The notes beneath the pieces were generated by a model. That model was not told the origin of the DNA, did not search any database, and saw only the letters and a list, made by a program, of their open reading frames with translations. From assembly GCA_051294375.1 (NCBI GenBank), contig CM119268.1, positions 9,188,718 through 9,252,717 of the forward strand: DNA of 64,000 nt, in the 5' to 3' direction. Position 1 is the stretch's first letter; the number at the start of each line of letters is the position of its first letter. A program made the position numbers and the translations under genes. Shown here in pieces: positions 43,475 through 63,060 of this stretch. This stretch comes from Paraspadella gotoi (taxonomy: Eukaryota; Animalia; Chaetognatha).

Positions 43475-44102
43475 CTAACAGTTGAGGGTCGAGCAGAGAA
43501 AAGGCTTCCTCTGATTACAGTCTTCGTCGTCCCAGCGGCGACTTCTCGGCCAGTTGAGCTGGGCGCAGTTCTGTCGACGTTGTCCGTTGGGTTCACCGTC
43601 GGCCCATTCGGGTCTGGCGGGATGACCGTCGTACCACGTCCAGAAGCCCTCGTGACCGGAGTCCGTGGCGCCGATCCAGAAGGCGCCTCTATTGCCATAG
43701 TTGTTCTTGACCATCTGCATGGCGCCGGGCCGGTGGAGGGTAGCGAATTTGAGGCCGCGGCTGGCGCATTCCCCGCGGGCTTCATGCCAGTTCTTCCAGT
43801 CGGTGATCAATTGGTAGGTGCAGGGAAGTGGGTAAACCGGTGGGGAAATCGGATAAGGGGGAGGAGTAGGGTGGGGCGGGGCGACGACACCACCACCGCC
43901 GGTGGCCGCCTCCATGACCGCCGTGGCTCCAAGACGACCAGGAAGACCAGGAGCCCCAATGGGAGCCGGGGTTTCCCCAGGGACGTCCTCCGGGTCTGCC
44001 TCCGGGTCTGCCGCCGGGTCTGGGGCGGTAGTAAGAGCCTGGTCCGTGTTGCGCCGAGACCAAGGCGAAGAAAAGGCAGAGTAACCAGAGTTCAGTCGCC
44101 AT
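43475..44102 (-). CDS. Secreted C-type lectin 1 (EPN motif) with Gly/Arg/Trp/His-rich N-terminus; 1-bp frameshift at 43901-43902
   Basis: Signal peptide MATELWLLCLFFALVSA; CTLD W.EARGEC...FWIG...W..GEPN...NC...WDDEDC...FLC. Removing one base joins the two ORFs into 208 aa. Confidence 0.85.
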
Positions 44103-44348
44103 CTTGATAAAAGTCTTTTGGGTTAAAATGAATTCGCCGAAGTCTTGGAGCGGTGATTTGTTAGCTAAAAAAAAATCAATCAGCGGTAACGAAATAAAAT
44201 TAACAATTCACCATTAATTACGAACAAAATTAATAACAATTGAAAAAAGGGATAAGCAAGCGACATGGCAGTTAGTGTCAGGAAGTCAAAGAACGAAAAA
44301 CAACGAACGAATCGATGCAAGAAATTTTTCATTGACATTGACTTAAGG

Positions 44349-44810
44349 AGTGTGCAATAAAGCGTAGTGAAAGTACGAAAATTCTAATAGTCAATTATGA
44401 ACAACATACCATCAGTGAACATTTGTTTTAAAAAAAAGTAATTTCATGTTTTTTTTTAATTTTCGCAGTGGGCTATATTTATCTATAGTACTATCCTTAT
44501 AAAATCGAAAAATTTTAAAATAGGCTTTTCTTAATTTTAATTACAGATTTGAATTCCTTGTTGATAAAATTATTTTTAAAAATTCTTTCATGACGAATCC
44601 AATTCTGCAAAAAAATCTTTAAAAAAACTATTTTGAAATTTTAACATTTATTGGGTTAGTACTGTGTAAATATGGTCAACTACGTAAACTGTAAAATTTA
44701 CAATAAATTTTTTTTTATACATAAATGTTCATAAGTCTAATGTTGTTCGTTCCTCACTTTTAGAATCGTAATTTAAGTTAAATTTATAATTTTTACGCTT
44801 TAGTGTGCAA
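44349..44810. mobile_element. Diverged MITE related to 42208-42760
   Basis: Ends AGTGTGCAATAAAGCGTAGTGAAAG and TTTTACGCTTTAGTGTGCA; shares internal ACAGATT..ATTCCTTGTT. Confidence 0.55.
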
Positions 44811-44853
44811 CCAAGATCATTCACATATTGCAACACTTTAAAAAGGAAAGAGT

Positions 44854-45360
44854 TTAGCGGCAATAAGGAACCTTGCACAAAAACGGTTTTCGAACATCAC
44901 AGCCCGCGTCGTCCATTAAAGCTTCGCCGCCCCACTGAGGCCGATAGTTGGTCTGCGCGCAAGTTTGTGAGCCCTCTCCATCGGGCTCTCCACGAGACCA
45001 CCAACCGTCCTCGAAAAGGACGAGTCGGCCGTCGAGCCAAATCCACTGACCGTTCCAGTAGAGGGCCCCGACCCAGAATCGCTCTTCGCCGAGGGCGAAC
45101 TGTTCCAGGATGAATCGGTGCTCCTGCACCGACTCGATGGAAATCAGGCGAAGGCCCTGTCGGTTGCATTCGGCTCGAGCTTCGACCCAGGTGAGGGGAG
45201 TGAATTCGTAACTGTAACAGTGTCGATTGAAGACCGAGGGATATCCGCCACCGACTACGGGATAGAAGTCTCTATCCGGATACCCGCCGCCGATGCCGGG
45301 CCACGGCGCGTGCGAAAGTGACGGGAGGACGAACAAAATGGCGCTCAGCAAAAGAGTCAT
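44854..45360 (-). CDS. Secreted C-type lectin 2 (EPD motif), intronless, 168 aa
   Basis: ATG at 45360, signal peptide MTLLLSAILFVLPSLSHA, GGGYP x2, CTLD HCY...WVEARAEC...FWVG...GEPD...C...MDDAGC...FLC. Confidence 0.92.
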   Translation of the reverse strand: MTLLLSAILFVLPSLSHAPWPGIGGGYPDRDFYPVVGGGYPSVFNRHCYSYEFTPLTWVEARAECNRQGLRLISIESVQEHRFILEQFALGEERFWVGALYWNGQWIWLDGRLVLFEDGWWSRGEPDGEGSQTCAQTNYRPQWGGEALMDDAGCDVRKPFLCKVPYCR

Positions 45361-45530
45361 TTTTTTTCGAATACATTCGATCTGATTAGGAAGAATGTTT
45401 AATTTCACTAACTTATAAACAAAATACAATTTTAGGCGGCCGCGATTTGAAAATGATTATTTAATTATGGGAGAGAGTAAAAACCTCTTAAAAACCTCTT
45501 AAATCTCAAAGCGATAGCTCAAAAGGCTTT

Positions 45531-46148
45531 TCAAGCGCCCCCTTCCCCTTTCGCTTCGCATTTGACGCAGACAAAAGGCTGCGCTCTAGAACACGCGTCG
45601 TCATGCCACGGCCTCTCCTCTTCGTCTTGAAACTTCAAGTCCATGCAGTTCTCCTCGATGCCGCCGTTAATGGAGGCCTGTCTCCAAACGGTGTCGTTTA
45701 GATCGATGCTGCCGCCGAAGGGAGCCCAGACCCATCGACCTTCGTCCGTCTCCACGCCGCCGATCCAGACGGACTGGGCCCGTTCGCCCACGACGGACTT
45801 GACTTTTTCGAACTCTTCCTCAGAGTTGACGGTGGCCAGGTAGGACATTCCCTGCTCCCGACAAGAGGCAAGAGCGTCCGTCCAGGTTTTGGCCTCTGGG
45901 TGAAAGTCGGGGCCGCAAGTGACTAAGCCACGACCGCCAGGATGATCACCGCGTCCGCCTGAACGGTAGTAGTACCAATAGTCGCCGTAATGGTATGGCC
46001 GGTACCAGCTGGACCCGTACCAGTAGGGTCGTTGGAGCCAGTAGTGACGGTAGTATCCCGAGTTAAAGTACCAGGGGTGGTAATACGCAGAAACGTAGGC
46101 GGCGGCCAACAGAAGGACGAACGCGTTTAGAAGAGAGGTATTCGACAT
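45531..46148 (-). CDS. Secreted C-type lectin 3 with Tyr/Trp-rich N-terminus, intronless, 205 aa
   Basis: Signal peptide, then CTLD TWTDALASC...LATV...VWIGG...ENC...WHDDAC...FVC; no EPN/QPD motif. Confidence 0.92.
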   Translation of the reverse strand: MSNTSLLNAFVLLLAAAYVSAYYHPWYFNSGYYRHYWLQRPYWYGSSWYRPYHYGDYWYYYRSGGRGDHPGGRGLVTCGPDFHPEAKTWTDALASCREQGMSYLATVNSEEEFEKVKSVVGERAQSVWIGGVETDEGRWVWAPFGGSIDLNDTVWRQASINGGIEENCMDLKFQDEEERPWHDDACSRAQPFVCVKCEAKGEGGA

Positions 46149-46433
46149 GGCGGACTCAAAAAGATTGAGGGATTCGACTGGAACATTAAAATTAATTGTA
46201 TATAATCATTGAATTTTTGAATGAATTAAACAAAACATTAGTTCTAGTAATGAATAAGAATAAAGAAATAAGAATTTTACTTTTTAAAGAATAAAATAAT
46301 AATAACGTATATATAAAAGATAATGAAATGAAAAAAGAAAATGTAAATTAAGATAAAACCGGGAAAGAACAAGGTAAAATATTCGGAACGCAAAAAAGTC
46401 CATGCGGAAAGCGTATCAAAGTAAAACGAAAGT

Positions 46434-47361: not shown

Positions 47362-49608
47362 CCCGCCTCCATCCTCCTTTCTAGATGTATTTCGCTCCAT
47401 GACCAAATAAGGGCACGACCTTTCTTCGACGCGACAATGAAGGAAAAACCAGTCAATGGCGCCGGAGAGAAAAAAAAGGCAGACAAGTGAAAAAAAAGGG
47501 GAGCGAGGGAAGTAAAGAGGCCTGGAGCGTGAGAGGGGGTGGGGGGGAGGGAAATAAATGAAGATGAGAAAATACTTGGGGGAGAAAAAGAAAGAAGAAA
47601 AAAGGAAAGGTTGAGTGATGATTTTCAGTTGGATTCACTGGCACGCCGCGCCTTAGTTCGGTGAATTGTTTGTGAAAGCTTATTTGTGAAAATTGAATTA
47701 CGTATCTAGAAAGCAGGGACGTTTTGGTTTTTGTAAAATGTTAAAATCTTTTCATTACGTCAATTAGAAATTTAATAATATTGTATAAATATAAAACGTT
47801 GAGACCTTCCGTGCCTATACTCGAATCCCAGTCTGAGGTCAAGCAAAAATTAATCCTGTCTCTGCGTTCTACATTCCCCCTACTCAATACAATATCACAG
47901 TGAACGCAGCCGATTTTTTTATCTTCACTCGCTAATCGGAGTGTCTTTGTTGGGGATTGGCTTCTCGAAACCAAAAAACGCAGAGAGAGAGATTGACCCG
48001 GACTGACCCAAGCTGACTTGATATAAAAGTCGATCTCTCGACTCTTACCCTCAGTCCTTTCGTTTTACTTTGATACGCTTTCCGCATGGACTTTTTTGCG
48101 TTCCGAATATTTTACCTTGTTCTTTCCCGGTTTTATCTTAATTTACATTTTCTTTTTTCATTTCATTATCTTTTATATATACGTTATTATTATTTTATTC
48201 TTTAAAAAGTAAAATTCTTATTTCTTTATTCTTATTCATTACTAGAACTAATGTTTTGTTTAATTCATTCAAAAATTCAATGATTATATACAATTAATTT
48301 TAATGTTCCAGTCGAATCCCTCAATCTTTTTGAGTCCGCCATGTCGAATACCTCTCTTCTAAACGCGTTCGTCCTTCTGTTGGCCGCCGCCTACGTTTCT
48401 GCGTATTACCACCCCTGGTACTTTAACTCGGGATACTACCGTCACTACTGGCTCCAACGACCCTACTGGTACGGGTCCAGCTGGTACCGGCCATACCATT
48501 ACGGCGACTATGTGTACTACTACCGTTTCAGGCGGACGCGGTGATCATCCTGGCGGTCGTGGCTTAGTCACTTGCGGCCCCGACTTTCACCCAGAGGCCA
48601 AAACCTGGACGGACGCTCTTGCCTCTTGTCGGGAGCAGGGAATGTCCTACCTGGCCACCGTCAACTCTGAGGAAGAGTTCGAAAAAGTCAAGTCCGTCGT
48701 GGGCGAACGGGCCCAGTCCGTCTGGATCGGCGGCGTGGAGACGGACGAAGGTCGATGGGTCTGGGCTCCCTTCGGCGGCAGCATCGATCTAAACGACACC
48801 GTTTGGAGACAGGCCTCCATTAACGGGCGGCATCGAGGAGAACTGCATGGACTTGAAGTTTCAAGACGAAGAGGAGAGGCCGTGGCATGACGACGCGTGT
48901 TCTAGAGCGCAGCCTTTTGTCTGCGTCAAATGCGAAGCGAAAAGGGGAAGGGGGCGCTTGAAAAGCCTTTTGAGCTATCGCTTTGAGATTTAAGAGGTTT
49001 TTAAGAGGTTTTTACTCCTCTCCATAATTAAATAATCATTTTCAAATCGCGGCCGCCTAAAATTGTATTTTGTTTATAAGTTAGTGAAATTAAACATTCT
49101 TCTAATCAGATCGAATGTATTCGAAAAAAAAATGACTCTTTTGCTGAGCGCCATTTTGTTCGTCCTCCCGTCACTTTCGCACGCGCCGTGGCCCGGCATC
49201 GGCGGCGGGTATCCGGATAGAGACTTCTATCCCGTAGTCGGTGGCGGATATCCCTCGGTCTTCAATCGACACTGTTACAGTTACGAATTCACTCCCTCAC
49301 CTGGGTCGAAGCTCGAGCCGAATGCAACCGACAGGGCCTTCGCCTGATTTCCATCGAGTCGGTGCAGGAGCACCGTTTCATCCTGGAACAGTTCGCCCTC
49401 GGCGAAGAGCGATTCTGGGTCGGGCCCTCTACTGGAACGGTCAGTGGATTTGGCTCGACGGCCGACTCGTCCTTTTCGAGGACGGTTGGTGGTCTCGTGG
49501 AGAGCCCCGATGGAGAGGGCTCACAAACTTGCGCGCAGACCAACTATCGGCCTCAGTGGGGCGGCGAAGCTTTAATGGACGACGCGGGCTGTGATGTTCG
49601 AAAACCGT
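47362..49608 (+). repeat. Inverted copy of 44883-47131 with frameshifted lectin 3 (from 48341) and frameshifted, truncated lectin 2 (from 49132)
   Basis: Reverse-complement identity apart from small indels; N gap near the centre; arm ends before the last CTLD Cys of lectin 2. Confidence 0.9.
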
Positions 49609-50093
49609 CCATTTTTCTGGGTTTACTTTGTTCCCGTTTTCAGTCATTTGTCTATTGTCTAATTAATGATTCCAAAACTAAACACATTAACTAAAAAAAT
49701 TTTTTCTAATTAAATTTTAACTACTTTCTGCTAATGAATACAGATATTTTAATTACGAGAACGAAACTTTTATATTGAATAAGAGACAAAGCTATAATAA
49801 TAATAATAATCTCAATAATAACGTTTCAGCGAATAGCGTCAATGTCAGATAGAATTCTGTTTGATTGACAAAAACGATCTGTTTGAACTCAGAAACTAAA
49901 CTCTGAAGGTTTTTCAAGACATTATTATTATTCTTCCTTATCCCGTATGAACGACTAGAAAAATTCTAAGAATTAAAAATGAAACTACCAACGCAACTTG
50001 CCGATCACATTATCTCCATTTCCTCACGATCCCCAAACGAACCCCTAAAACCCTTAAACCACCTCACCCCCGATTCCACTCTCACTCAAAAGC

Positions 50094-53000
50094 TCAAAGG
50101 CCGGGGAAGCAAGCCTTGAACCCGGGCGTCTCCTTTCCCTGCGCGAAGACGGCCACGGGCACCAGGGCGTGGTCGGACGTCATCAGGTAGTTGTGGGCGC
50201 GGCCCATGGCCGTCTTCCGCTCCGCGGCCGACGCCGCGCCGCCGATCCACACGAAACACTCCGCGCCGACGACGTCGAGGATGAAGACGTCGTTGGGGTC
50301 GAGAAGGGAGGAGTCGAGGGATGTGGAAGACTCCGTCACCTTAAGCCGGGGGGGGGGAGAGGGAGGAAGGAGGAAAGGGGAGGAAGAAAAATGATGTCGG
50401 AGAATGCAAAGAGACGAGTGGATGAAAGGGGGGGAAATAAAGAATTTCCCAAAAGGGGAGGAGAGAGAGAGAAAAAAAAGAGAGAGAAGGAAGAGAAGAA
50501 AGAGAAAGGGGGAAGGTATAGAAAAAGAGAGAGAGAGAGAGAAACGAGAGAGAAACATGGAAGAAAAATAATAAACTACGCGACCAACGCACTTTAATAA
50601 AAACAAAACTTAAGCCGGCTCGCAACCTTGTTAAAATCCAAACGACCGCCCGCGTCGGACAGTTTGAAGAGAATTCTTTTGCCGGAGTTGACCGCCGTGT
50701 TGTCGTCGTCGTCGTCGTCGTCGTCGATGGCGCTCGATTCCGCTTCTTCCAACTTTTTCCAAAATTCTTTGTCGTCGCCAGAATCTACGACCACAGAAGA
50801 GACTTCCTCGTGACTGCGCGAACCTTTCAGTTCCGCCAGGAAAGTCATCGCCTTGTCAAGTTAGGGGGAGGGGCCCGAGGGGTTGTAGTTTTCAAATTTA
50901 ATCGTTAAAGTTTCATTTATTAATGGATTAGGTATCGATTTGCGAGTTTGTCTTTATATCAATCTCTTCTTTTTTTTTCTTTTTTTTTTGCAACGATATC
51001 CGCAATTACTGTATTTGTTTGCTTTGTTTTCTATTTCAGAAAAAAAAAGTAAAAAAAAATTACGAGCAAAACTGATTGGCAAACGATATTTGTGCACGAG
51101 TTAATATTTTTTAATTTTACCTCACCTTCGACTTCTCGGCCAAGTTGGCGCCGGCGCCGTTCCATTGAATCATAGTTGTCCCGAGGTCGAGGATAAATAT
51201 GTCGTTCTCCTAATAGTGAAAATAAACGAGAAATTAACCAGGCAAGGGCATCGATTTCTGACCAAAAGAAGGGCCAAGAGGCTATAGCAACTGTTGGCTT
51301 TAGGGGCTTCCGACCCTCAGTGGCGCCGTCTGTCACTGGCGCAGTTACACTTGGACGGTCTCTCTTTGCCAACACAAAGGGAAGTCGTTGTGAATGAATG
51401 GAATGGATGGAACGTATTGCTCGGGATGGTGCGTTCCCCATCTGAGCCAATGGGATTTCGGAATGAAGCTGGATGTGAGGCGATGTGAATATACCGTCAC
51501 AGGCCAATATTTAAGTTTACATCCGCGATTAGAGATAACAATGACAACATCGAAAAACTACCGACCAGTTTGTTCCCAACCCTTCAAGCATCAAGAATAT
51601 CATTTAACGATGGACATAAAAAAAACACCTTGACGTTCTTTTTGAGCGGAGCCACTTCCTTCACGTCGACGCGACCTCTTGTGCCGCTGACGTGAAGCAG
51701 ACGCGGTTTGTATTGTTCGGGCGTCACGTGACGAAATCCGGAATCAGCCCCGCCTTAATATTAATCGTTTAACGTAGCAACTGAGTATATTTTTAAACCC
51801 GAATAAAACAATCAAAATTTTAATTTTTAGAGCACGCTACATGAACCCGAGAAGGTGATTTTTTATTTCTATTCCCGCCGATGCTCCTTTGTTTCATTGC
51901 TTTCCTTTTATACGCCTTGGATAATTTCGCCCACCTGACAAATATTGCATGGTTGGAAAGTAGGATTTAAACTTTTCGCTTTCGTGTCCTTGCACTTCCC
52001 GATGCTGAACCGGTTTGTCCTGATGGGGAAAAAAAATGCCTACGTCGTTTTCAAACAGAAAAAAAAAAAATTCCTAAATCCTCTTCTCTCAGTCGGCCTC
52101 GCCTTGTGAAAAGTGTCGAGTTCCACCGTCTTGTAAGCGGCCGCCCCGTACTCGTCTTGCGTCGAGTATTTCCCGATCCAAAAATGAAGATCCATCTGTA
52201 GCTCCTCTTCATCCGGGACTTTGTAGCTGGGACGGGTTAGGGTCGAAAGAGAGGTTAGGATCGTCGGAAGCGGGGAGACATAATGTGTGAATTGGACTGT
52301 AATAGGAGATATACGCTGGTGGATAAAGAAGGGGTGGTTTTGAATATTTAAAAATAAGTGGGGCTCATAACTTTGAAGGCGGGGGTCTTAAAACATGAAA
52401 GGAATCTTTTAAATTAAAAAAAACAAAAAAACAGGGGTTTCTAAACTAATCTAAGAGAGCTTTAAAACTTCAAAATCAGTGATCCTGAAGCACAAAAAAA
52501 GAGAAGTTTAAAAGCATGGATATTGGAGAGTCGGGATGCAAAAACTTCCGGTTACGCGCGGGAAAAAAAAGGGGGGGTGGTGGGGGGGGAGGAGCTAGTA
52601 ATGACTTTTTTGTCATTGCTTCGGCGGCGAACGAGAAAAAAAAATTCATTTGGCGATAATGCGTTTCCTTTTCCGCGTTGAGAGTTTTCGTCGTAATTTG
52701 CGAGCAAAGAGATGCCTCGTGAGTTGATGTTTATGTTGTTGATGACGTTGACGGGGGAAACCCGTCAAAAAAAAATGAAAATTAAAAAAAAAAAATTACT
52801 GCGACTATCGGTCGATGAACCTTTTTACAGGGAAGTTCCTCTAGAATCAATCAAGCAGCCAATGGCCAATTTAACTTGAAGCTCAATGATAAGCGAGTAC
52901 ATTATTTATCAATTTGTCCGCAATCTCAAATCAAATCAATCGTTCTTACGTTCTCAGTACGATGTACGAGTCTCCCATGTAAAACTCTCCGTACTGATCC

Positions 53001-53179
53001 TCGGGCCAGTCCACGACCTGGAACTTGACGATCCTCCAGATCTGAAGCCCTTCCTTCTCTCCGCTGCCCCGCCACGCCGCCTCCGACGAGGCCGCCGCCT
53101 CCTTGACCTTCCGCTCGAGCGGCGAGCCGAAGAGCGCCAGGTTTGAGTCGCGGAAGTCGTACTTCTTCGCCTTTTGCAT
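50094..53179 (-). CDS. Three-domain gelsolin/severin-like actin-severing protein, 372 aa; exons 53179-52950, 52226-52103, 52019-51935, 51753-51629, 51209-51126, 50851-50627, 50339-50094
   Basis: GLQIWRIVKF, YGEFYMGDSYIVL, LHFWIGKYSTQDEYGAAAYKTVELD, PVQHREVQGHES, DIFILD, DVFILD motifs; all exon phases are consistent. Confidence 0.96.
51240..51510 (-). mobile_element. Possible tRNA-derived/SINE-like insert in gelsolin intron 4
   Basis: GC-balanced block in an AT-rich intron with A-box-like TGGCTCAGATGG; no clear B box and no second copy seen. Confidence 0.3.
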
Positions 53180-53236
53180 GATCGTCGATTAGATTTCTAT
53201 CGCGATTTTTTTTTTTTCGATCGAGTGGGAATTTAA

Positions 53237-54919: not shown

Positions 54920-56656
54920 ATGCACGACGCCATTCTCTCCGCGAGCAACGCCACCTGTCCCGAACGGCACTACACTCAGCGCCTCTTCGCGTCCTCCGGC
55001 GCCGTCGTTCTTATTATCGGCGTCGCCGCTAGCGTCGCTTCCATCGTCGTGTGGACGTCTTTGATCCGTCGTCACCGGGGCATGACGGTGACGGTGTGGG
55101 CGACGGTTCTGGTTGTCATCGAAGCCACGAACATCTTCCTCCTCGTGGTCGACGGTTTCCGCTACGTCGTCCCCGCCTTCATGGTCGTCTTAGGCGGAAA
55201 ATGCGACGCCGGGGATATGGTCTTCCACTATCCCATCTTCTGGCGCCAGATGTTTCCTTATCTCTGGGGGACGTTCTATCCGCTAGAGCAGGTGGCGCTA
55301 TTCGCCCACCAATGGATCCACTTGCTCTTGTCAACGGAGCGCTACCTCCATGTGTGTCAACCCTTTAAAATCAGGCGCCAGTTGACCCGGCGCCGGGCAT
55401 TGGCGGGCGTGGGGGCGATAGTAGCAGCGTCGACGGCGTGCTGCGTCCCTTACTGGTTCGAGTATCGCATCCGCGTTTATCGAGACAAATCGCGTTGCTA
55501 CGGCGTCGACTATTGCGCCCAATCTACGCAGACGACGCTGCGCGAGGACGCCTGCTACATCCTTCTGTATCGTATCGCCTTCCACGTGCTCGTCAAGTAT
55601 CTCGTGCCGTGGACGCTGGTGACGCTGCAGACGGCGGCCGTGGTTCGCGTTCTCAAACGCATCTCCAACTCTGTCGTAGACGATTCCAACATCCGCGGCT
55701 CCATCGTCTCTGTTTCGTCGGTCTCACTCGGCGCGAAGGACGCCGTCGGAGGGACGACTCCGCGCCGAAAACGCGGGAGTATCGGGTCGGGCGGAAATGA
55801 GGCTGAGCAGTCGACCTTGTCTTCCAAGCTCGATCGAAAAGTAACGAACCTCTGCTTCGCCATCGTCTTCATGTTCTTCATTTGTCAACTGCCCCACGGA
55901 ATCTGGTTGGCACTCTCCGGCTTCACGCTTCCATACGGCAGGGGTCAAAATTTAGGGCGTTTCCAATGCGCCGGCGACACTCGCGGCTTTCTACGCGTTC
56001 ATTTTGTCAACGGCAGTGCCGGCGCCACCAGCGGCGTTGATTCCGCCGATTCGGTGCCGCGCCTGGCCTTTCGTTCGGGAGCGGAGGGCGAGCGGCGCCG
56101 CCGTTGGCGTGCCACAAGTCCAGACTTACCTCAGAGAATCTACTGGCGTTTTAACGATCCCATCGCGTCCGGGGTCTACAAACTCGTCTTTAACGTTGAA
56201 CTCGATTGCTCCCACATTCTTCCGCGGATTTCCTGCTTTCGCTTCGACGCTCTGACGTCCGTGGACGACGACTGCGGAGATTGGGAGGCGCGTCCGGCGC
56301 TCGACGGCCACGATCGCGCCTTCGACTGTTGCGACAGGAAGTGGAAGTTTTTCTTTGTCGCGAGAGAGAAGACGCGCTGCTTCGGCGTCCGAGTGACGCG
56401 TGGCGACGTGGAATGCCGCGTCAACGCCACCGTCACCAACGTAATTCTTTATCGTCATCAGCAAAGGACGGTGCCGGCTGCGCCGCACAAGAATCTAGCA
56501 GTGTTGGTGTACGACATGCTCGAGGATTACGTGGCCTTGGGAACTATACTACTGCTGCTGCTCACGCCGACCGTAGATCTTGTCATTTTCTCGTTGTTCT
56601 ATCCGCCTTTTCAAACTGAATTGAGAAGGATATTTATTCCGAGGATAATGAAATAA
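54920..56656 (+). CDS. Class A GPCR (FMRFamide/peptide-receptor-like), intronless, 578 aa, with ~200-aa ECL3 insert
   Basis: Seven hydrophobic segments; STERYLHVCQPF (DRY-type), P.WFEY after TM4, FFICQLP in TM6, TM7 plus helix 8 (PPFQTELRRIF). Confidence 0.93.
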   Translation: MHDAILSASNATCPERHYTQRLFASSGAVVLIIGVAASVASIVVWTSLIRRHRGMTVTVWATVLVVIEATNIFLLVVDGFRYVVPAFMVVLGGKCDAGDMVFHYPIFWRQMFPYLWGTFYPLEQVALFAHQWIHLLLSTERYLHVCQPFKIRRQLTRRRALAGVGAIVAASTACCVPYWFEYRIRVYRDKSRCYGVDYCAQSTQTTLREDACYILLYRIAFHVLVKYLVPWTLVTLQTAAVVRVLKRISNSVVDDSNIRGSIVSVSSVSLGAKDAVGGTTPRRKRGSIGSGGNEAEQSTLSSKLDRKVTNLCFAIVFMFFICQLPHGIWLALSGFTLPYGRGQNLGRFQCAGDTRGFLRVHFVNGSAGATSGVDSADSVPRLAFRSGAEGERRRRWRATSPDLPQRIYWRFNDPIASGVYKLVFNVELDCSHILPRISCFRFDALTSVDDDCGDWEARPALDGHDRAFDCCDRKWKFFFVAREKTRCFGVRVTRGDVECRVNATVTNVILYRHQQRTVPAAPHKNLAVLVYDMLEDYVALGTILLLLLTPTVDLVIFSLFYPPFQTELRRIFIPRIMK

Positions 56657-56991
56657 ATTTAGCCACTTAGCCTAATCATTTCTCTCCCCTTGAGCTTCAG
56701 GCGTTTTAATCACTAATCTCTGTTATTTATTAGGAAGATAAGGATCTGATTTCTTCTCCGAAACAAAGTGCGTAAATTGAAACTGAACCTTAAGAAAATG
56801 TGGTTATTGGCAAAACTGATAAAGAACAAACGTCTCAAAGAACACAAAAGATGGAATCTGAAGACTGAAGCTGGAAAAACTTGTTTTTTTACAACGACCT
56901 CAACTTAGAATAACGAACGACTTTAATTAGAGATTCGATTGACGATCTAAGAATAGCAACGTCGGCCATCTTCGTCATCGGTAAATCGGTC

Positions 56992-59328
56992 ATGGAGTCA
57001 TCAGTCGACGTCACCGCTCAACGTTTCCTCGGTTACGCGGGCGCCATTTTGATTCCCTTCGGCGTCGTCACCTCCTCGGTCAGCATCGCCGTTTGGCTTC
57101 GACTCGCACGCAACACAAAATCAGCGGCGGTTTCCGTTTGGGCTGGCCTCGTCCTGGTCGTTGTCGGCGCCAACCTTTCTCTCTGCTTCCTCGCCGCCTT
57201 CACCGACGTCTTCCCGGCGCTGCTCATCAACTCGGAGAGCGCCGTTAGAGCGGAGGGTATGGTCGGCGGCGCGCCCTCCTATTGGCGCGACGTCTTTCCG
57301 AAGATGTGGCTGTTTTTCTACCCGTGGGAACAGGCCACGCTCGTCGTCCACCAGTGGACCAACCTCCTACTCTCCACGGAACGCTACCTCTTTTTTTGCC
57401 AGCCCTTCAACGCCAAACGGGTGGTAACGCGGCGGCGAGCGAGAACTGCCGTCGGCGTTGTGGTGGCGTTCTCGGTCGTAGCCTCCGCGCCATTCTGGTT
57501 CGAGTACCACAACTGCGCACATCCACCGGTTTGTCACGGCGAAAGGTTCTGCACTCCTGCCATCCAGACGGAAATGAGGGAAGATGGAGTCGTAGCACTG
57601 AATAAAAAATGAAACTAGTAATTAGCATATATTTTGAAAACAGACATTTGAAGGAAATATAAACTTTAAAAATTACAATAACGCATGTATACGTATTACT
57701 GCAGTAACAAGTAACATATACATGTACATATACATGTACAGATCTTAATTATTGATATAAAGATATAAAGATACCTAGGCTAATCTAGCACACGAAAATA
57801 ATCCATTCATTTTATTATTATTTTCGATTCATCAAACTTTATAGACTACTTCCTACTCTCAGGGAAGATCATTGCTACATCCTGATTTACCGAGTGGTGT
57901 TTCACACTGTGGCCAAATACGTGATCCCTTGGAGTCTCATCCTTCTCCAAACGGTCGCCGTGTGCCGAGAGTTATACCGCATCGACCGACTCAAACGAAA
58001 AGTGTCGGCGGTGTTGTTCGTTTGTTCGATCTCATCTTCGGCTTCGGAAAATAAATCCGTGGTGGTCGGGCAGAAGGAATCCACGAGCGCGAAAAAACAT
58101 CGGGGTTTCAGGTTGTGTTAAGTCGATTGCATTGCAACCAGCTTCTATCGATTGAGTTAATTTGTTTTTCTTATAAAAAAAAAAATCCGACAGACCTGAA
58201 ACGTCACATCACCGTAAACTTGCACGACTCTCGATCGCCGTCGTCGCCACCTTCTTCGTTTGTCAACTCCCTCGAGCCGTCTTCCTAGCCAAAGTCGCCT
58301 TCACGCTCCCCAACGACGAAGAGTTTCGACTGAGCGACCTCCACTGTTTCGACGAGAAAGCTAATGACGATCGCGACGACCATTTCGTGAAATACGTTGA
58401 CGAGAAGAACGAAACAGTTAGGCAATTTGTTGTATTGATCTTTTTCAATAGTAGACAATCAATCAATCGTTCAATCTTTCGAATGAAAGAATAAAATTAA
58501 ATATTAGGAAAATATTATCGATTTCCCCCACCATCAATTAGTCAACGGCTTGAAATAAATGTTATGTATGAAATGTATGAAATCGAGATGGAAATGGGTG
58601 ACATCACTTTAATCTTTAGCATTTCTTCCCAGGAAATAGATTATATCGGCGGCCAAGCTGGTGCTTCAAGTTTACTTGGCTACGGATGCCTACCGGAATC
58701 AGCATTTCACTTTAACTCAAGCGGGCAATTCACTATCTGCGGCGGATGGAAAGCCACTTCGAGCCGCCTTCCTCAGTTACTGTTTTACGATTTCGGAGCC
58801 CCTCTCCCGACAGGATCTTTTAATATATCCTTCGGCCGATCTTCGATCTTCTGCTCGAACGATTCAACGTCGTCCATGGAGATCGTCGACGACTCGTGTC
58901 GCCGACATCGGCCCGTGCTTTCCAGCGACGCCGGCTGCAATGCCTCGTCGACTTGGCAACCACCTAAGACGATACAAAATAGCGAAGAGGGAGACCGGAT
59001 GACGATCCACTTTGACCACAACTCCAGCGTCAGGTGCTTCGGAATCTTAGTCGACGAAGGGCTGCAACGTCGGAACGACAGTTTCCAGTCGAGGGAAATC
59101 TCTGACTTATGGATGTGGAAAATTGAAAGCCGATCGAGATCAAGTCACAAGAATTTAGCGGAGGTCGTCTTCGCTGCAGTGAACGATCCGCTGGGAGCCG
59201 TTAGCGAAGTTCTCTTACTCCTCAATCCGATTTTTGATTTCGTTATCTTTTTCAAGTTGTACAATCCGTTCAAAAAGGAACTGGATCGGTTACTCCGCAG
59301 TCCGCACCAGTCGTCGGAAATGGCTTGA
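56992..59328 (+). CDS. Paralogous class A GPCR, ~584 aa; exons 56992-57578, 57863-58111, 58194-58416, 58633-59328
   Basis: Collinear with the upstream paralog (STERYLFFCQPF, PFWFEY, KYVIPW, FFVCQLP, HKNLA, LLNPIFDFVIF). Intron 1 needs a GG donor. Confidence 0.88.
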
Positions 59329-59583
59329 TTTTTTTGTTGTTGTTGTAGTAACCTTTTAAAAATAAATGTGCCTATATCTATGTGAAGTAACATTCGGAAT
59401 ATGAATGCTGAAATTTAATTGCTCACTCTTGATTTATTAATTGATTCTCATTGTCTATTCGAATTTTTGATTATAACAAGACAATCTTAACTAAATTTTA
59501 GAGTAAATTTTAATTTTAATTGTTATTTAGTAAATAGCAGAAAGATTTTCAACTGAAGTTTTTTAAAGTTAATTACATGTTCT

Positions 59584-59865
59584 CCCGATATATGTGGAAT
59601 TATGAATAAGGCACTTAGTGAGCAGAAGAGTGCTATCCGCAACTTCTTTAACCGCCTCAGGCAGCCATGGAACGGCTGCTGGGCTTGGAACCAGGCTTGA
59701 GAGTTTTCGAGGGCCCTAAGGGGGTTCACGGTGGTCATTACGCTTCCCGCCCGGTAGGTACCTGGTTGGGATTGAACCCGGTACCTAAGGGCCTTCAGCT
59801 GATGGCTTTACTCAAGGAGCCAGCGGGTTAAGACTGAAGGAGTCATGCTTATAGGCGGGGTGAAC
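59584..59865 (-). mobile_element. tRNA-derived (SINE-like) repeat, family 1, cleanest copy
   Basis: Minus strand TGGCTCCTTGAGTAAAGC (A-box-like) and GGGTTCAATCCC (B box); homologous to 8110-8400. Confidence 0.75.
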
Positions 59866-60812: not shown

Positions 60813-62290
60813 GAACTGGTGTCTTCAAACGGCGGCATCGATTACGAGGACGTTCCACCGGGAATAGGAACTTACCATCACATTCCTCTAAATACCTACA
60901 CCCATTTGCCCCCAAACTCGACCCCCACCATCATTCCAAATCAGGTGATTAGAAGAAATTCCGAGGCAAATAATTTATCTTTTATGAAATTGGTACAACG
61001 AATATAAGTTATCTCGCCCCTGACTCTGGACAGTGGACAGTGGACAGGGTATGGTGGGTTATGGCCTTATCGATGATTTATTTTTCTTATTTACCCAGTT
61101 GACAAACGGATTAACAAGCCTCTCCTATCATCCTCATCATCCCTTGCGTCAAAGCACCATCGCTCCACACCTCGCTCACATCGCCTCGCCCCTTCATCAA
61201 TCCCATCACCACTTCTCTGGAGTGGGCACACTTCCCAACCACCATCATCACCAATTAACGCCGCAAAGGAGTCATCTCAGGTCAGAAATTGTTGAGAGAA
61301 TGTTTACTGTTTATCGAGCGAACCTTCCAGAAATCCATAAGTAACCAAAGATAATAACAACAATTTTATTAATTCAACTGGCAACAGGTCGCAGCTTTCG
61401 CTGCAGGACGCTTGCGGCGAATTGGTGGAGCTGAATGACTCTAAGGCTTCTGAACTGGCGCCGGCGCGCGACGGAGGCACGCCCACTTCCCTCGGAGGGG
61501 GCGTTGACAAATCACGCGACGTTTGGTACTCCAACTTCATGAAGATGGCTCGAGCCCTTCACTCGCTCCAGAATGAGCACAGGGGTATGAGGCTACAATT
61601 ACAATATGATATATTATACAATATTATATACAATATTATATATTATATTGGTTGCACCAATTTCATATATATGTATAGAATATATATATATTATTATATA
61701 ATAGCCATATTACGTGCCTAACTTGTCATTCATCTGTATTAAGATAAAAAACATTCACAACTAAAGTTCTACCAAGTGTTTTCCATCTTATTTTAGTTTG
61801 ATTTTTAATTAGCTTATTACATTTCCATAATTCCATATGTATTTTATAGAGCATTCACGTAAAACTGTATTCGTTCGAATATTGAATATGAATGATACTT
61901 TTTAGTAATTTGACCCCAATTCAATTACTCATTTCGTTTTATTTCCAGGTTTCTTGCCTCTCGAGGAAGCTTTCAAACAAATCAGAAGCTACAACTTAGT
62001 CTACGAATTGCATCTCTCCGATGATCAGGTTGATTTCGCTGTAGAAATTTTAAAAATTAGGATAATCAATATCATGTACATGAAATGGTTCAAGGTTAAA
62101 TAAATTGTTCATTCAGTAATTAACTAATCATTTTTATGGTAAAATTATTCAAAAAGTAAAATAAGTAAACTCAAGTTTTTTCCATTTCTTTTCTCAGGTC
62201 GAGGGGGCAATCGCGAAATGCTCTAACGGTCTCCACGTTGACGTAGATCCATTGCTGAGGATTCTCGCAATGGACACCACCTTCGTGTGA
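60813..62290 (+). CDS. C1orf87-like (EF-hand-like) protein, 5' end unresolved; exons 60813-60944, 61099-61340, 61388-61584, 61949-62028, 62198-62290
   Basis: In-phase GT-AG splicing; C-terminus WYSNFMKMARALHSLQNEHRGFLPLEEAFKQIRSYNLVYELHLSDDQVEGAI...PLLRIL resembles the C1orf87 C-terminus as recalled (W..F.K...AL......G.L..E.A...I..YNL.Y.L.LS). Confidence 0.7.
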
Positions 62291-63060
62291 CGTTCGAACC
62301 CGAAGCCTCTCGAAAAAACTGACGGAATAGAAAAAGCTCTCGGTGTAACTGTAATTGCAGCGCCTCTAATCTTTGTGACTTGTCTTTCTCTGACGCCGTT
62401 TATGGTTTTTTTTTTTCTCTCTGACACGGAGCAATGAGCGAAATATTTTGATTTATTAAATATAATATCACGATGTTATGACGGTATACTTTTCGAATAT
62501 TTGTAAAAAATGTTTTAATTCGTTGTTTGATCCCCACAAATTGAATTGTTGTAAATTCATATTACAATCGTTTTACATTTGTACCTCACAAAAAAGTACC
62601 GATTGGGTAAAACACATTTTCTTTCTACTTGAACGAGAGGAATACAGTGTTCCAGATTCAGAATTTAACTTCCAGTAAAAAAAAAATCTAGAATGAAATT
62701 TGTTTGGATGATGATTTATAATGATTACGGAAGAAACATCAACGCCATGCCCGCCATAAGCAGACAGATGCTCGGACTGAGATTAGGACATAGGCAATAG
62801 GCATGGCGTTAAAATTGACATCATATAGAAATATCAAATTTTTTAACCAAATTTTTACTCCTCTGAGTACTTCTAGAGATAGTTTAAAATAATGGTAGTT
62901 AGTGCCGTTAGTGCGGGGAAAATTATACATTCACCGTTTAAGATCTTCCCAGTGGGTTATTTTTTTCTGCACTAACGTAAAAAAATTTATTCCGCGAAAA
63001 AAAAACAATGTGAAGAGACAGATATAATTGTTAGTGACATAACTGCTATGGCTATGCCTA

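What the first reader, a model, noticed from the sequence alone, without database searches (positions are those of the whole stretch)
55916..59190. Tandem GPCRs with a discoidin (F5/8 type C)-like domain inserted in extracellular loop 3
Seen: both receptors have ~200 aa between TM6 and TM7, with aligned motifs AGATSG..PRLAF..WRATSPDLPQRIYWRF..TRCFGVRV..VTNVILY (GPCR1) and AGASS..PESAF..WKATSSRLPQLLFYDFGAP..VRCFGILV..ISDLWMW (GPCR2), several Cys, and conserved flanks FTLP and HKNLA. Known: class A ECL3 is normally short, accessory domains usually sit at the N-terminus, and F5/8C domains follow an ASS...P..AF...W...PQW...DF...RY.R pattern. Inference: a peptide-type GPCR family has acquired a glycan- or lipid-binding beta-sandwich lid over the ligand pocket. 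Conservation in two diverged paralogs argues against an artefact. I do not know of this architecture being described.
Basis: partly seen in the sequence, partly recalled or inferred. Interest (0 to 1): 0.9.

Follow-up and report, generated by a model that had tools for sequence, protein, structure and literature searches.

The report
GPCR family with domain-filled outer loop
Two neighbouring animal genes for rhodopsin-family receptors carry about 200 extra amino acids in an outer loop that is normally short, and this insert is predicted to fold as a beta-sandwich that likely captures a ligand above the receptor, a design that would give these receptors an unusual way of sensing.

Summary
Two tandem class A GPCRs (578 aa, intronless; 584 aa, four exons) carry homologous inserts of 184 and 206 aa between TM6 and TM7. 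In 42 of 43 measurable relatives the TM6-TM7 motif spacing is 31-49 aa; here it is 229 and 251. A spliced-RNA run keeps the insert in the GPCR2 transcript. Unnamed public assemblies hold further family members, two with the insert running into TM7. Sequon enrichment (18 against 7.9 expected) and conserved cysteines point to an extracellular location. A four-sequence AlphaFold model (pLDDT 56; core 70-81) gives a jelly-roll beta-sandwich whose best matches are mostly galactose-binding-like domains, at middling Z (5-7). F5/8C is the best sequence lead (Atlas 0.95; hhalign 36%), but it is below threshold, and several conserved F5/8C residues are replaced, so glycan binding is unsupported. New here: the family shares N1.50S, D2.50N, N5.58T and Y7.53F but keeps ERY, so activation is probably atypical. 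Best reading: a built-in ligand-capture domain tied to TM6 and TM7. Nine literature searches found no such architecture. New variant of a known kind; interest 0.74.

The parts
54920..56656 (+). GPCR1 coding sequence, intronless, 578 aa, class A (7tm_1) receptor
   Evidence: single DNA contigs of two runs span it with 0 and 3 differences
55835..55933 (+). GPCR1 TM6 (with CQLP) and the FTLP flank, residues 306-338
   Evidence: TM6 start is approximate
55934..56485 (+). GPCR1 ECL3 insert, 184 aa, 8 Cys, 2 N-glycosylation sequons; predicted beta-sandwich
   Evidence: contig 27 of the spliced-RNA run covers 55938-56571 with no gap
56486..56656 (+). GPCR1 HKNLA flank, TM7 (NPxxY position read as DLVIF) and helix 8
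56992..57578 (+). GPCR2 exon 1 (TM1-TM4, ECL2); start codon is the first ATG of the open frame
57579..57862 (+). GPCR2 intron 1, 284 nt; best read as non-canonical GG..AG, with a 9-nt direct repeat at the two ends
   Evidence: joint skipping 284 nt in one RNA contig, 9-nt ambiguity; ends printed
57863..58111 (+). GPCR2 exon 2 (TM5, ICL3)
58194..58416 (+). GPCR2 exon 3 (end of ICL3, TM6, FTLP at 58300, first 35 aa of the insert)
   Evidence: GT..AG joints on both sides
58633..59328 (+). GPCR2 exon 4 (rest of the insert to 59145, HKNLA, TM7, helix 8, stop)
   Evidence: RNA contigs 29 and 30
58723..59142 (+). Predicted jelly-roll beta-sandwich core of the GPCR2 insert (model residues 31-170)

Best explanation
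These are two class A GPCR paralogs with a 184-206 aa insert between TM6 and TM7, which is predicted to be an extracellular, glycosylated, disulfide-held beta-sandwich of the galactose-binding-like kind and likely acts as a built-in ligand-capture (co-receptor) domain for a peptide, protein or other large ligand. Shown: the gene structures, the position of the insert, its presence in spliced GPCR2 RNA, its conservation, and family-wide changes in the TM core (N1.50S, D2.50N, N5.58T, Y7.53F; ERY, P5.50 and C6.47 kept). Predicted: the fold and the extracellular location. Inferred: both ends of the domain are tied to TM6 and TM7, in two homologs by only about 3 residues at the TM7 end. Ligand binding would therefore hold the ligand at the pocket mouth and shift TM6/TM7 directly, in place of the lost sodium/water-network switches, and the receptor would still signal through its intact ERY motif and basic ICL3.
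For: Position and homology. Unusual length: of 150 listed relatives, 43 had both TM6 and TM7 motifs; spacing was 31-49 aa in 42, and 267 in P0006, against 229 and 251 here. Exonic: RNA contig 29 joins the TM6 exon to the insert exon at a GT..AG intron; contig 30 runs from the insert through TM7; none of the 4 listed joints skips the insert. Other assemblies: P0006 (TM6-insert-TM7 in one frame) and P0011 (insert-TM7) align over the insert. P0002, P0004, P0155 and P0061 continue past TM6 with a Cys-bearing stretch. One clade by TM1-6 alone, SH-aLRT 100 (quick tree, 50 rows). Extracellular: 18 sequons against 7.9 expected, 0 of 5000 shuffles reach it; one sequon Asn, three Cys, Ser, Trp and R-C-x-G are invariant in 4 of 4. 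Fold: seven strands at residues 48-167; VIA best Z 7.1, rmsd 3.4, 106 aligned, and most top rows are carbohydrate-binding modules, with whole domains aligned end to end; Eph ligand-binding domains Z 5.5-6.2 and neuropilin b1 Z 5.6. Atlas top named hit F5/8C at 0.95, with 10 of 10 best hits in one family or clan. Parent family: 10 of the 12 best long insert-less hits that I scanned match Pfam Srw as well as 7tm_1; that such receptors are FMRFamide/peptide-type is recalled. Core switches.
Against: No ligand, binding or signalling evidence of any kind. The fold rests on a four-sequence model with mean pLDDT 56 and pTM 0.45; only 2 of 5 models exceeded pLDDT 50. Foldseek found nothing at E <= 0.001, and Z under 8 may reflect only a common arrangement. 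The GPCR1 insert got only 0.80 Atlas hits to unnamed clusters. The Atlas hit for GPCR2 shares 153 features, under the 170 typical of same-family hits. The full-length model is unusable (pLDDT 37), so contact between the domain and the pocket is not modelled. D2.50N together with Y7.53F usually weakens G-protein activation in class A receptors (recalled). Sequon enrichment is individually significant only in GPCR2 (1 of 4).
Confidence: 0.42

Rival explanations
1. The insert is a true lectin-like F5/8C (CBM32/discoidin) domain and the receptor senses glycans or lipids, for example microbial or prey surfaces.
For: F5/8C scores best of four profiles: hhalign 35.9% (E 3.8e-4) against CBM6 3.8%, HYR 0.5% and LamG 0.15% for the two window inserts; the GPCR2 insert scores 7.3 bits with 0 of 300 shuffles reaching it. 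Four motifs are colinear. Most top fold matches are carbohydrate-binding modules. C-type lectin genes lie about 9 kb upstream (weak).
Against: No Pfam F5/8C hit in any insert tested. The four-sequence profile gives 1-2%. GPCR1, P0006 and P0011 are within shuffle range (48, 145 and 38 of 300), and the unrelated HYR decoy also gave GPCR2 1 of 300. Of the conserved columns of the bacterial set, the early Asp, the Gly after S-x-D, the Tyr and Lys of R-Y-x-K and the terminal Glu are not kept (mapped by eye). That the Asp and Glu build the calcium site of CBM32 is recalled.
Confidence: 0.2
2. The receptors are atypical and do not signal through G proteins. The domain captures a ligand for scavenging or adhesion, or serves as a structural cap or dimerisation piece, and the 7TM part is an anchor or an arrestin-coupled shuttle.
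For: Four positions conserved in 56-66 of 68 insert-less relatives are changed in all family members that cover them: N1.50S, D2.50N and N5.58T in 5 of 5; Y7.53F in 4 of 4 by motif. The stem branch is long (1.37). Similar changes in atypical chemokine receptors are recalled.
Against: R3.50 (5 of 5), P5.50, C6.47 and the helix-8 Phe are kept. ICL3 is long and basic (9 and 12 K+R).
Confidence: 0.23
3. The insert is a beta-rich or partly disordered Cys-rich loop unrelated to galactose-binding-like domains, and the resemblance is convergence or a model artefact.
For: All similarity scores are below threshold. Model residues 1-43 have pLDDT under 50. The N-terminal part of the insert varies greatly in length between members.
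Against: Three methods (language-model features, template-free folding with structural alignment, profile-profile alignment) point to the same superfamily. The invariant Ser, Trp and Arg fall on columns conserved in F5/8C.
Confidence: 0.13
4. Artefact: misassembly, a retained intron, or an insert that is spliced out.
For: The window has gaps and an apparently frameshifted duplicate region nearby. No RNA contig bridges TM6 into the insert for GPCR1. Only one RNA run was available, and contigs drop rare isoforms.
Against: The frame is open across the insert in two paralogs. Single DNA contigs span GPCR1 in two runs, one of them not flagged as a possible source. Spliced RNA retains the insert in GPCR2. 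Homologs in independent assemblies have the insert fused to TM7.
Confidence: 0.02

Closest known systems
Class A (rhodopsin-family) peptide-type GPCRs matching Pfam 7tm_1 and 7TM_GPCR_Srw (FMRFamide-receptor-like; that label is recalled)
   Same: 7TM core, ERY, P5.50, CxxP in TM6, helix 8. 10 of the 12 best long insert-less hits scanned match Srw; GPCR1 itself matches Srw only weakly, E 0.0011, below the cut-off.
   Different: ECL3 is about 190-210 aa longer; N1.50, D2.50, N5.58 and Y7.53 are changed.
Complement C3a receptor (C3aR)
   Same: Class A peptide receptor with a very long extracellular loop (ECL2 of about 172 aa) that is glycosylated and contributes to ligand binding (PMC10518620, passages read).
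   Different: That loop is ECL2 and is flexible, with only 16 residues resolved by cryo-EM (same passages). Here the loop is ECL3, Cys-rich and predicted to be a folded beta-sandwich.
F5/8 type C / discoidin / CBM32 domains (PF00754) and the galactose-binding-like superfamily (CBM6/35/36, Eph ligand-binding domain, neuropilin b1, IFT25)
   Same: Predicted jelly-roll of similar size aligned end to end at Z 5.3-7.2; colinear W..PQ, S.D..W and F....R motifs.
   Different: Below every family threshold; R-Y-x-K is replaced by R-C-x-G; extra family-specific Cys; several conserved acidic and Gly positions are lost. Sits inside a GPCR loop and not in a secreted or single-pass protein (recalled as the usual setting).
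GPCRs with N-terminal ectodomains (LGRs, adhesion, class B, C and F) and Smoothened with its long ECL3
   Same: An extracellular module is thought to capture ligand and relay it to the 7TM core (general knowledge). Smoothened was the only GPCR among the 6 listed papers on long third loops (search listing only).
   Different: Their folded domains precede TM1 and are tethered at one end (recalled). Here the domain is tethered at both ends to TM6 and TM7.

Membership tests
Class A GPCR (7tm_1) | Pfam 7tm_1 above the curated cut-off | tested here: met
   GPCR1 56.2 bits and GPCR2 exon 1 32.5 bits, cut-off 30.5; P0002, P0003, P0004 and P0155 41-50 bits
Class A GPCR (7tm_1) | Seven membrane helices with TM7 and helix 8 after the insert | tested here: met
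   Hydropathy peaks (TM3 falls under the 1.5 threshold in both but is covered by the Pfam match); TM7 aligns to relatives' TM7; helices after the strands in the model. No dedicated topology predictor was available.
Class A GPCR (7tm_1) | D/E-R-Y motif in TM3 | tested here: met
   R3.50 in 5 of 5 members covering TM3
Class A GPCR (7tm_1) | Canonical N1.50, D2.50 and NPxxY switches | tested here: not met
   S, N and (D/N)xxxF in the family, against N 65/68, D 66/68 and Y 62/68 in relatives. These are typical features, not strict ones; generic numbers were assigned from recalled motifs.
Class A GPCR (7tm_1) | Couples to a G protein | not testable with these tools
   needs a cell assay
F5/8 type C (discoidin, PF00754/PF22633) | Pfam profile match above the cut-off | tested here: not met
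   no family at E <= 1 for either window insert or at E <= 10 for P0006 and P0011
F5/8 type C (discoidin, PF00754/PF22633) | Remote profile similarity to F5/8C above other beta-domain families | tested here: inconclusive
   best of four profiles but 36% for two sequences and 1-2% for four; even F5/8C against CBM6 scored only 0.4% in this set-up; Atlas 0.95 for GPCR2 and 0.80 unnamed for GPCR1
F5/8 type C (discoidin, PF00754/PF22633) | Jelly-roll beta-sandwich fold | tested here: inconclusive
   model pLDDT 56; matches to CBM32-type and neuropilin b domains at Z 5.5-6.1, tied with CBM35/36/22 and Eph domains; best Z 7.1-7.2 to a sialidase N-terminal module
F5/8 type C (discoidin, PF00754/PF22633) | Conserved residues of the family (early D, W, D, S-x-D-G..W, R-Y-x-K, terminal E) | tested here: inconclusive
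   S, W and R kept in 4 of 4; G, Y, K, the early D and the terminal E not kept (mapping partly by eye; the reference set was 26 bacterial domains only)
F5/8 type C (discoidin, PF00754/PF22633) | Binds glycan, phospholipid or collagen/peptide | not testable with these tools
   needs arrays or pull-downs
7TM_GPCR_Srw-like peptide receptors | Pfam Srw match above the cut-off | tested here: inconclusive
   GPCR1 18.7 bits, cut-off 22.2; 10 of 12 nearest long relatives scanned pass; the tree does not place the clade in any supported subgroup

The most novel reading that the evidence does not exclude
A lineage of animal peptide-type GPCRs has built a neuropilin/Eph-like (galactose-binding-like) co-receptor domain into ECL3 and at the same time lost the canonical sodium/water-network switches. 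Ligand or force on the domain moves TM6 and TM7 directly. This would be a class A activation mode driven by a doubly tethered folded loop domain.
Probability: 0.25. Interest if true: 0.9.

Novelty: new variant of a known kind. Interest (0 to 1): 0.74.

Why it matters
Folded accessory domains of GPCRs are, as far as I recall, N-terminal, and ECL3 of class A receptors is short (15-20 aa in a survey of lineage-specific receptor expansions from 238 lophotrochozoan genomes; PMC11886862, passages). A natural, conserved family with a whole domain between TM6 and TM7 shows that this loop tolerates one. It offers a direct test of whether a domain tied to the two activation helices can drive signalling, and could serve as a template for engineered sensors with an exchangeable extracellular binding module. 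Standard annotation would miss the design: Pfam stops at TM6, and all homologs found are unnamed fragments.

Tried and rejected
Single-sequence AlphaFold of full GPCR1: pLDDT 37, not used for any claim. Pfam on the inserts: nothing. PDB sequence searches with insert profiles: only E 0.44 and 0.7 hits (CHORD, prion-like), rejected as chance; none for A2. Foldseek: no match at E <= 0.001. Homolog searches: the full protein gave 1 hit among 7998 scored candidates; the insert profile gave 0 of 749; the insert+TM7 profile gave only its own members P0006 and P0011 among 4536. No full-length homolog with the insert was found; 34 of the 184 hits were not listed. No related locus in JGI metagenome contigs or in GTDB genomes. 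Plasmid tblastn gave only E >= 0.5, and A1 against five Bacteroidota-type genomes gave only E >= 0.17. So no close bacterial donor was seen, and horizontal transfer is neither supported nor excluded. GC3 of the insert (0.68, 0.58) lies between or near that of the flanking parts (0.76/0.57 and 0.70/0.60), so there is no sign of a recent foreign piece. My first alignment-driven gene model of GPCR2 used a GT donor at 57546; the RNA joint overruled it. No whole genome is held, so family size in this animal is unknown; the window holds only the two copies. The lineage of the animal was not determined. Splice signals of the neighbouring genes were not examined, so whether non-canonical introns are common here is open. 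Earlier scan findings: three look-ups returned nothing. No complex prediction was run.
Full report
Gene structures. GPCR1 is a single open frame, 54920-56656 (+), 578 aa. Pfam 7tm_1 matches residues 125-335 at E 4.7e-15 and stops just after TM6. GPCR2 begins 335 bases later and has four exons: 56992-57578, 57863-58111, 58194-58416 and 58633-59328, 584 aa with no internal stop. The exon joints come from run X9, whose RNA status is a guess on record. Its contigs skip 284, 82 and 216 nt where three DNA runs do not, and two of the three joints are GT..AG, so it holds spliced RNA. A fourth listed joint (58041-58196, CT..AC, 28 letters on the short side) is unexplained. tblastn finds no third copy in the window. 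The surroundings (C-type lectin and gelsolin exons; introns; microsatellites) mark an animal genome; the lineage was not determined and no whole genome is held.

The observation. Between the shared FTLP and HKNLA flanks lie 184 aa (GPCR1, 8 Cys) and 206 aa (GPCR2, 7 Cys). They align with score 108, against a shuffle mean of 31 and a maximum of 53 (0 of 2000); identity is 26%, compared with 42% in TM1-6. Neither these inserts nor two homologous ones contain a hydrophobic 19-mer above 1.07. After the insert comes a hydrophobic helix that aligns to TM7 and helix 8 of ordinary relatives. For a baseline I took all 150 listed hits of the representative search. 58 had a recognisable TM6 motif and 43 had both TM6 and TM7 motifs; the other 107 were dropped. 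The spacing was 31-49 aa in 42 and 267 in one, P0006, a family member; the window proteins give 229 and 251.

Not an artefact. One DNA contig each in runs X1 and X7 spans all of GPCR1, with 0 and 3 differences; X7 is not flagged as a possible source of the window. RNA contig 29 joins the TM6 exon to the main insert exon, contig 30 runs from the insert through TM7 and the stop, and contig 27 covers the GPCR1 insert into TM7 without a gap. None of the 4 listed joints skips the insert. Limits: one RNA run, contigs only, and no contig bridges TM6 into the insert for GPCR1.

A family. Of the 150 listed representatives, 2 align over the insert: P0006 (TM6, insert and TM7 in one frame) and P0011 (insert and TM7). 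P0002, P0004, P0155 and P0061 continue past TM6 with a Cys-bearing stretch and no TM7; the first three then diverge at one place, as expected at an intron (the intron is inferred). P0003, P0016 and P0034 share the distinctive TM6 end. The ten looked up are all unnamed ENA contigs under 3 kb, so whether they are other species or paralogs is unknown. A tree of 50 rows (5 family rows cut to TM1-6, and the first 45 relatives of 340-470 aa with a D/E-R-Y/F/W motif; quick search, the careful one did not finish) puts the 5 on one long branch (1.37) with SH-aLRT 100, but does not place them in a supported subgroup. 10 of the 12 best long insert-less hits that I scanned match Pfam Srw as well as 7tm_1; that this marks FMRFamide/peptide-type receptors is recalled.

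Outside the cell. TM6-TM7 is ECL3 by class A topology. The four inserts carry 18 N-x-S/T sequons against 7.9 expected (0 of 5000 shuffles), though only GPCR2 is significant alone. One sequon Asn, three Cys, a Ser, a Trp and R-C-x-G are invariant in 4 of 4.

The fold. Pfam and PDB sequence searches give nothing for the inserts. The ESM Atlas, named clusters only, ranks F5/8 type C first for the GPCR2 insert at 0.95, with 10 of the 10 best hits in one family or clan but only 153 shared features. For the GPCR1 insert it gave 0.80 to unnamed clusters. AlphaFold2 on GPCR2 exon 4 with a four-row alignment gave mean pLDDT 56 and pTM 0.45, with seven strands at 48-167 (blocks of 69-81 in the core), residues 1-43 unreliable, and then the TM7 and helix-8 helices. 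Foldseek found no match at E <= 0.001; its highest-probability rows were HSPC034/IFT25 and CBM32. VIA against 48,161 chains gave a best Z of 7.1 (rmsd 3.4, 106 aligned, sialidase N-terminal module), then BgaA, CBM36 and CBM35 modules at 6.1-6.4, with none at 8 or more. The second look adds Eph ligand-binding domains (to Z 6.2), meprin (6.0), CBM32-type modules (5.5-6.1) and neuropilin b1 (5.6). To test F5/8C directly I built a profile from 26 of the 31 bacterial matches (4 under the cut-off and 1 partial match dropped), with decoys of CBM6 (9 of 10 loci), LamG (24 of 25 loci) and HYR (17 of 43 loci). The two window inserts give 35.9% (E 3.8e-4) to F5/8C against 3.8%, 0.15% and 0.5%; four inserts give only 1.0%. 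By HMMER only GPCR2 beats all 300 shuffles, and the HYR decoy also gave GPCR2 1 of 300. The alignment is colinear at four motifs, scoring 18.7 against a maximum of 13.3 in 60 column shuffles. Of the conserved columns of the F5/8C set, S, W and R are kept and G, Y, K, the early D and the terminal E are not (mapped partly by eye). Verdict: a jelly-roll beta-sandwich is likely (about 0.8), descent from F5/8C-type domains plausible (about 0.55), and membership not shown.

An altered core. Against 68 insert-less relatives, all 5 members covering TM1-6 have S for N1.50 (N in 65), N for D2.50 (D in 66) and T for N5.58 (N in 56). All 4 covering TM7 have F for Y7.53 (Y in 62; read from the motif, since misaligned some rows there). 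R3.50, P5.50, C6.47 and the helix-8 Phe are kept. The generic numbers rest on recalled motifs. It suggests that gain of the domain went with a change in the activation mechanism.

How it most likely works. Shown: architecture, RNA retention, conservation, core changes. Predicted: extracellular beta-sandwich with disulfides and glycans. Inferred: the domain's two ends are tied to TM6 and TM7, with only about 3 residues before the TM7 flank in P0006 and P0011 (by eye). It would capture a large ligand, more likely a peptide or protein than a sugar, and pass the event to the activation helices (0.42). Rivals: a non-signalling scavenger, adhesion or structural role (0.23); a true lectin receptor (0.2); an unrelated fold (0.13); artefact (0.02).

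What is known. C3aR has an ECL2 of about 172 aa, but it is flexible and mostly unresolved (PMC10518620, passages). In lineage-specific class A expansions from 238 lophotrochozoan genomes, ECL3 is 15-20 aa (PMC11886862, passages). A survey of GPCRs in the relatives of animals has no occurrence of 'discoidin', 'galactose' or 'inserted' in its main text (PMC12716839, term search). Nine searches aimed at this architecture found no description: searches returned zero papers, and the listings (titles and abstract starts only; 25 of 224 and 20 of 347 shown) showed nothing relevant. The library lacks most subscription papers, I read no supplements (genome-paper domain tables could list such receptors), and I could not query InterPro architectures or AlphaFold DB.

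Verdict. A real, conserved and apparently undescribed class A GPCR architecture: a known receptor core and probably a known fold, combined in a new way. New variant of a known kind, interest 0.74. Ligand and mechanism are untested.

Noticed in passing
window 57579-57862: GPCR2 intron 1 has no GT or GC donor compatible with the RNA joint; the best reading is GG..AG, and the same 9 bases stand at both ends. It may be a non-canonical donor or an intron gained by insertion with a target-site duplication. GPCR1 has no intron there. One contig of one run supports it.
   Followed up: partly
window 58041-58196: A fourth RNA joint (skips 154 nt, CT..AC ends, 28 letters on the short side) in the ICL3 region of GPCR2; an alternative splice form or an assembly artefact.
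   Followed up: no
window 43475-46205 (-) and 48363-49694 (+): Three C-type lectin genes (Pfam Lectin_C), one with a Tyr/Trp-rich N-terminal part. Two of them reappear inverted at 48363-49694 with apparent frameshifts: an inverted duplication or an assembly error.
   Followed up: partly
window 50094-53200 (-): Exons of a gelsolin-like gene (Pfam Gelsolin for 50097-50609; the further exons read by eye), ending about 1.7 kb upstream of GPCR1 on the other strand.
   Followed up: partly
window 59600-59850: A high-copy repeat just downstream of GPCR2 (contig depth in the thousands at 59533-59700).
   Followed up: no
window 61341-62300 (+): Probable exons of another gene with no Pfam match for the 61341-61718 frame.
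   Followed up: no
window 54977-55633 and 57019-57983 (TM1-TM5 of both genes): Family-wide loss of N1.50, D2.50 and N5.58 (and of Y7.53 in TM7) with ERY kept.
   Followed up: yes
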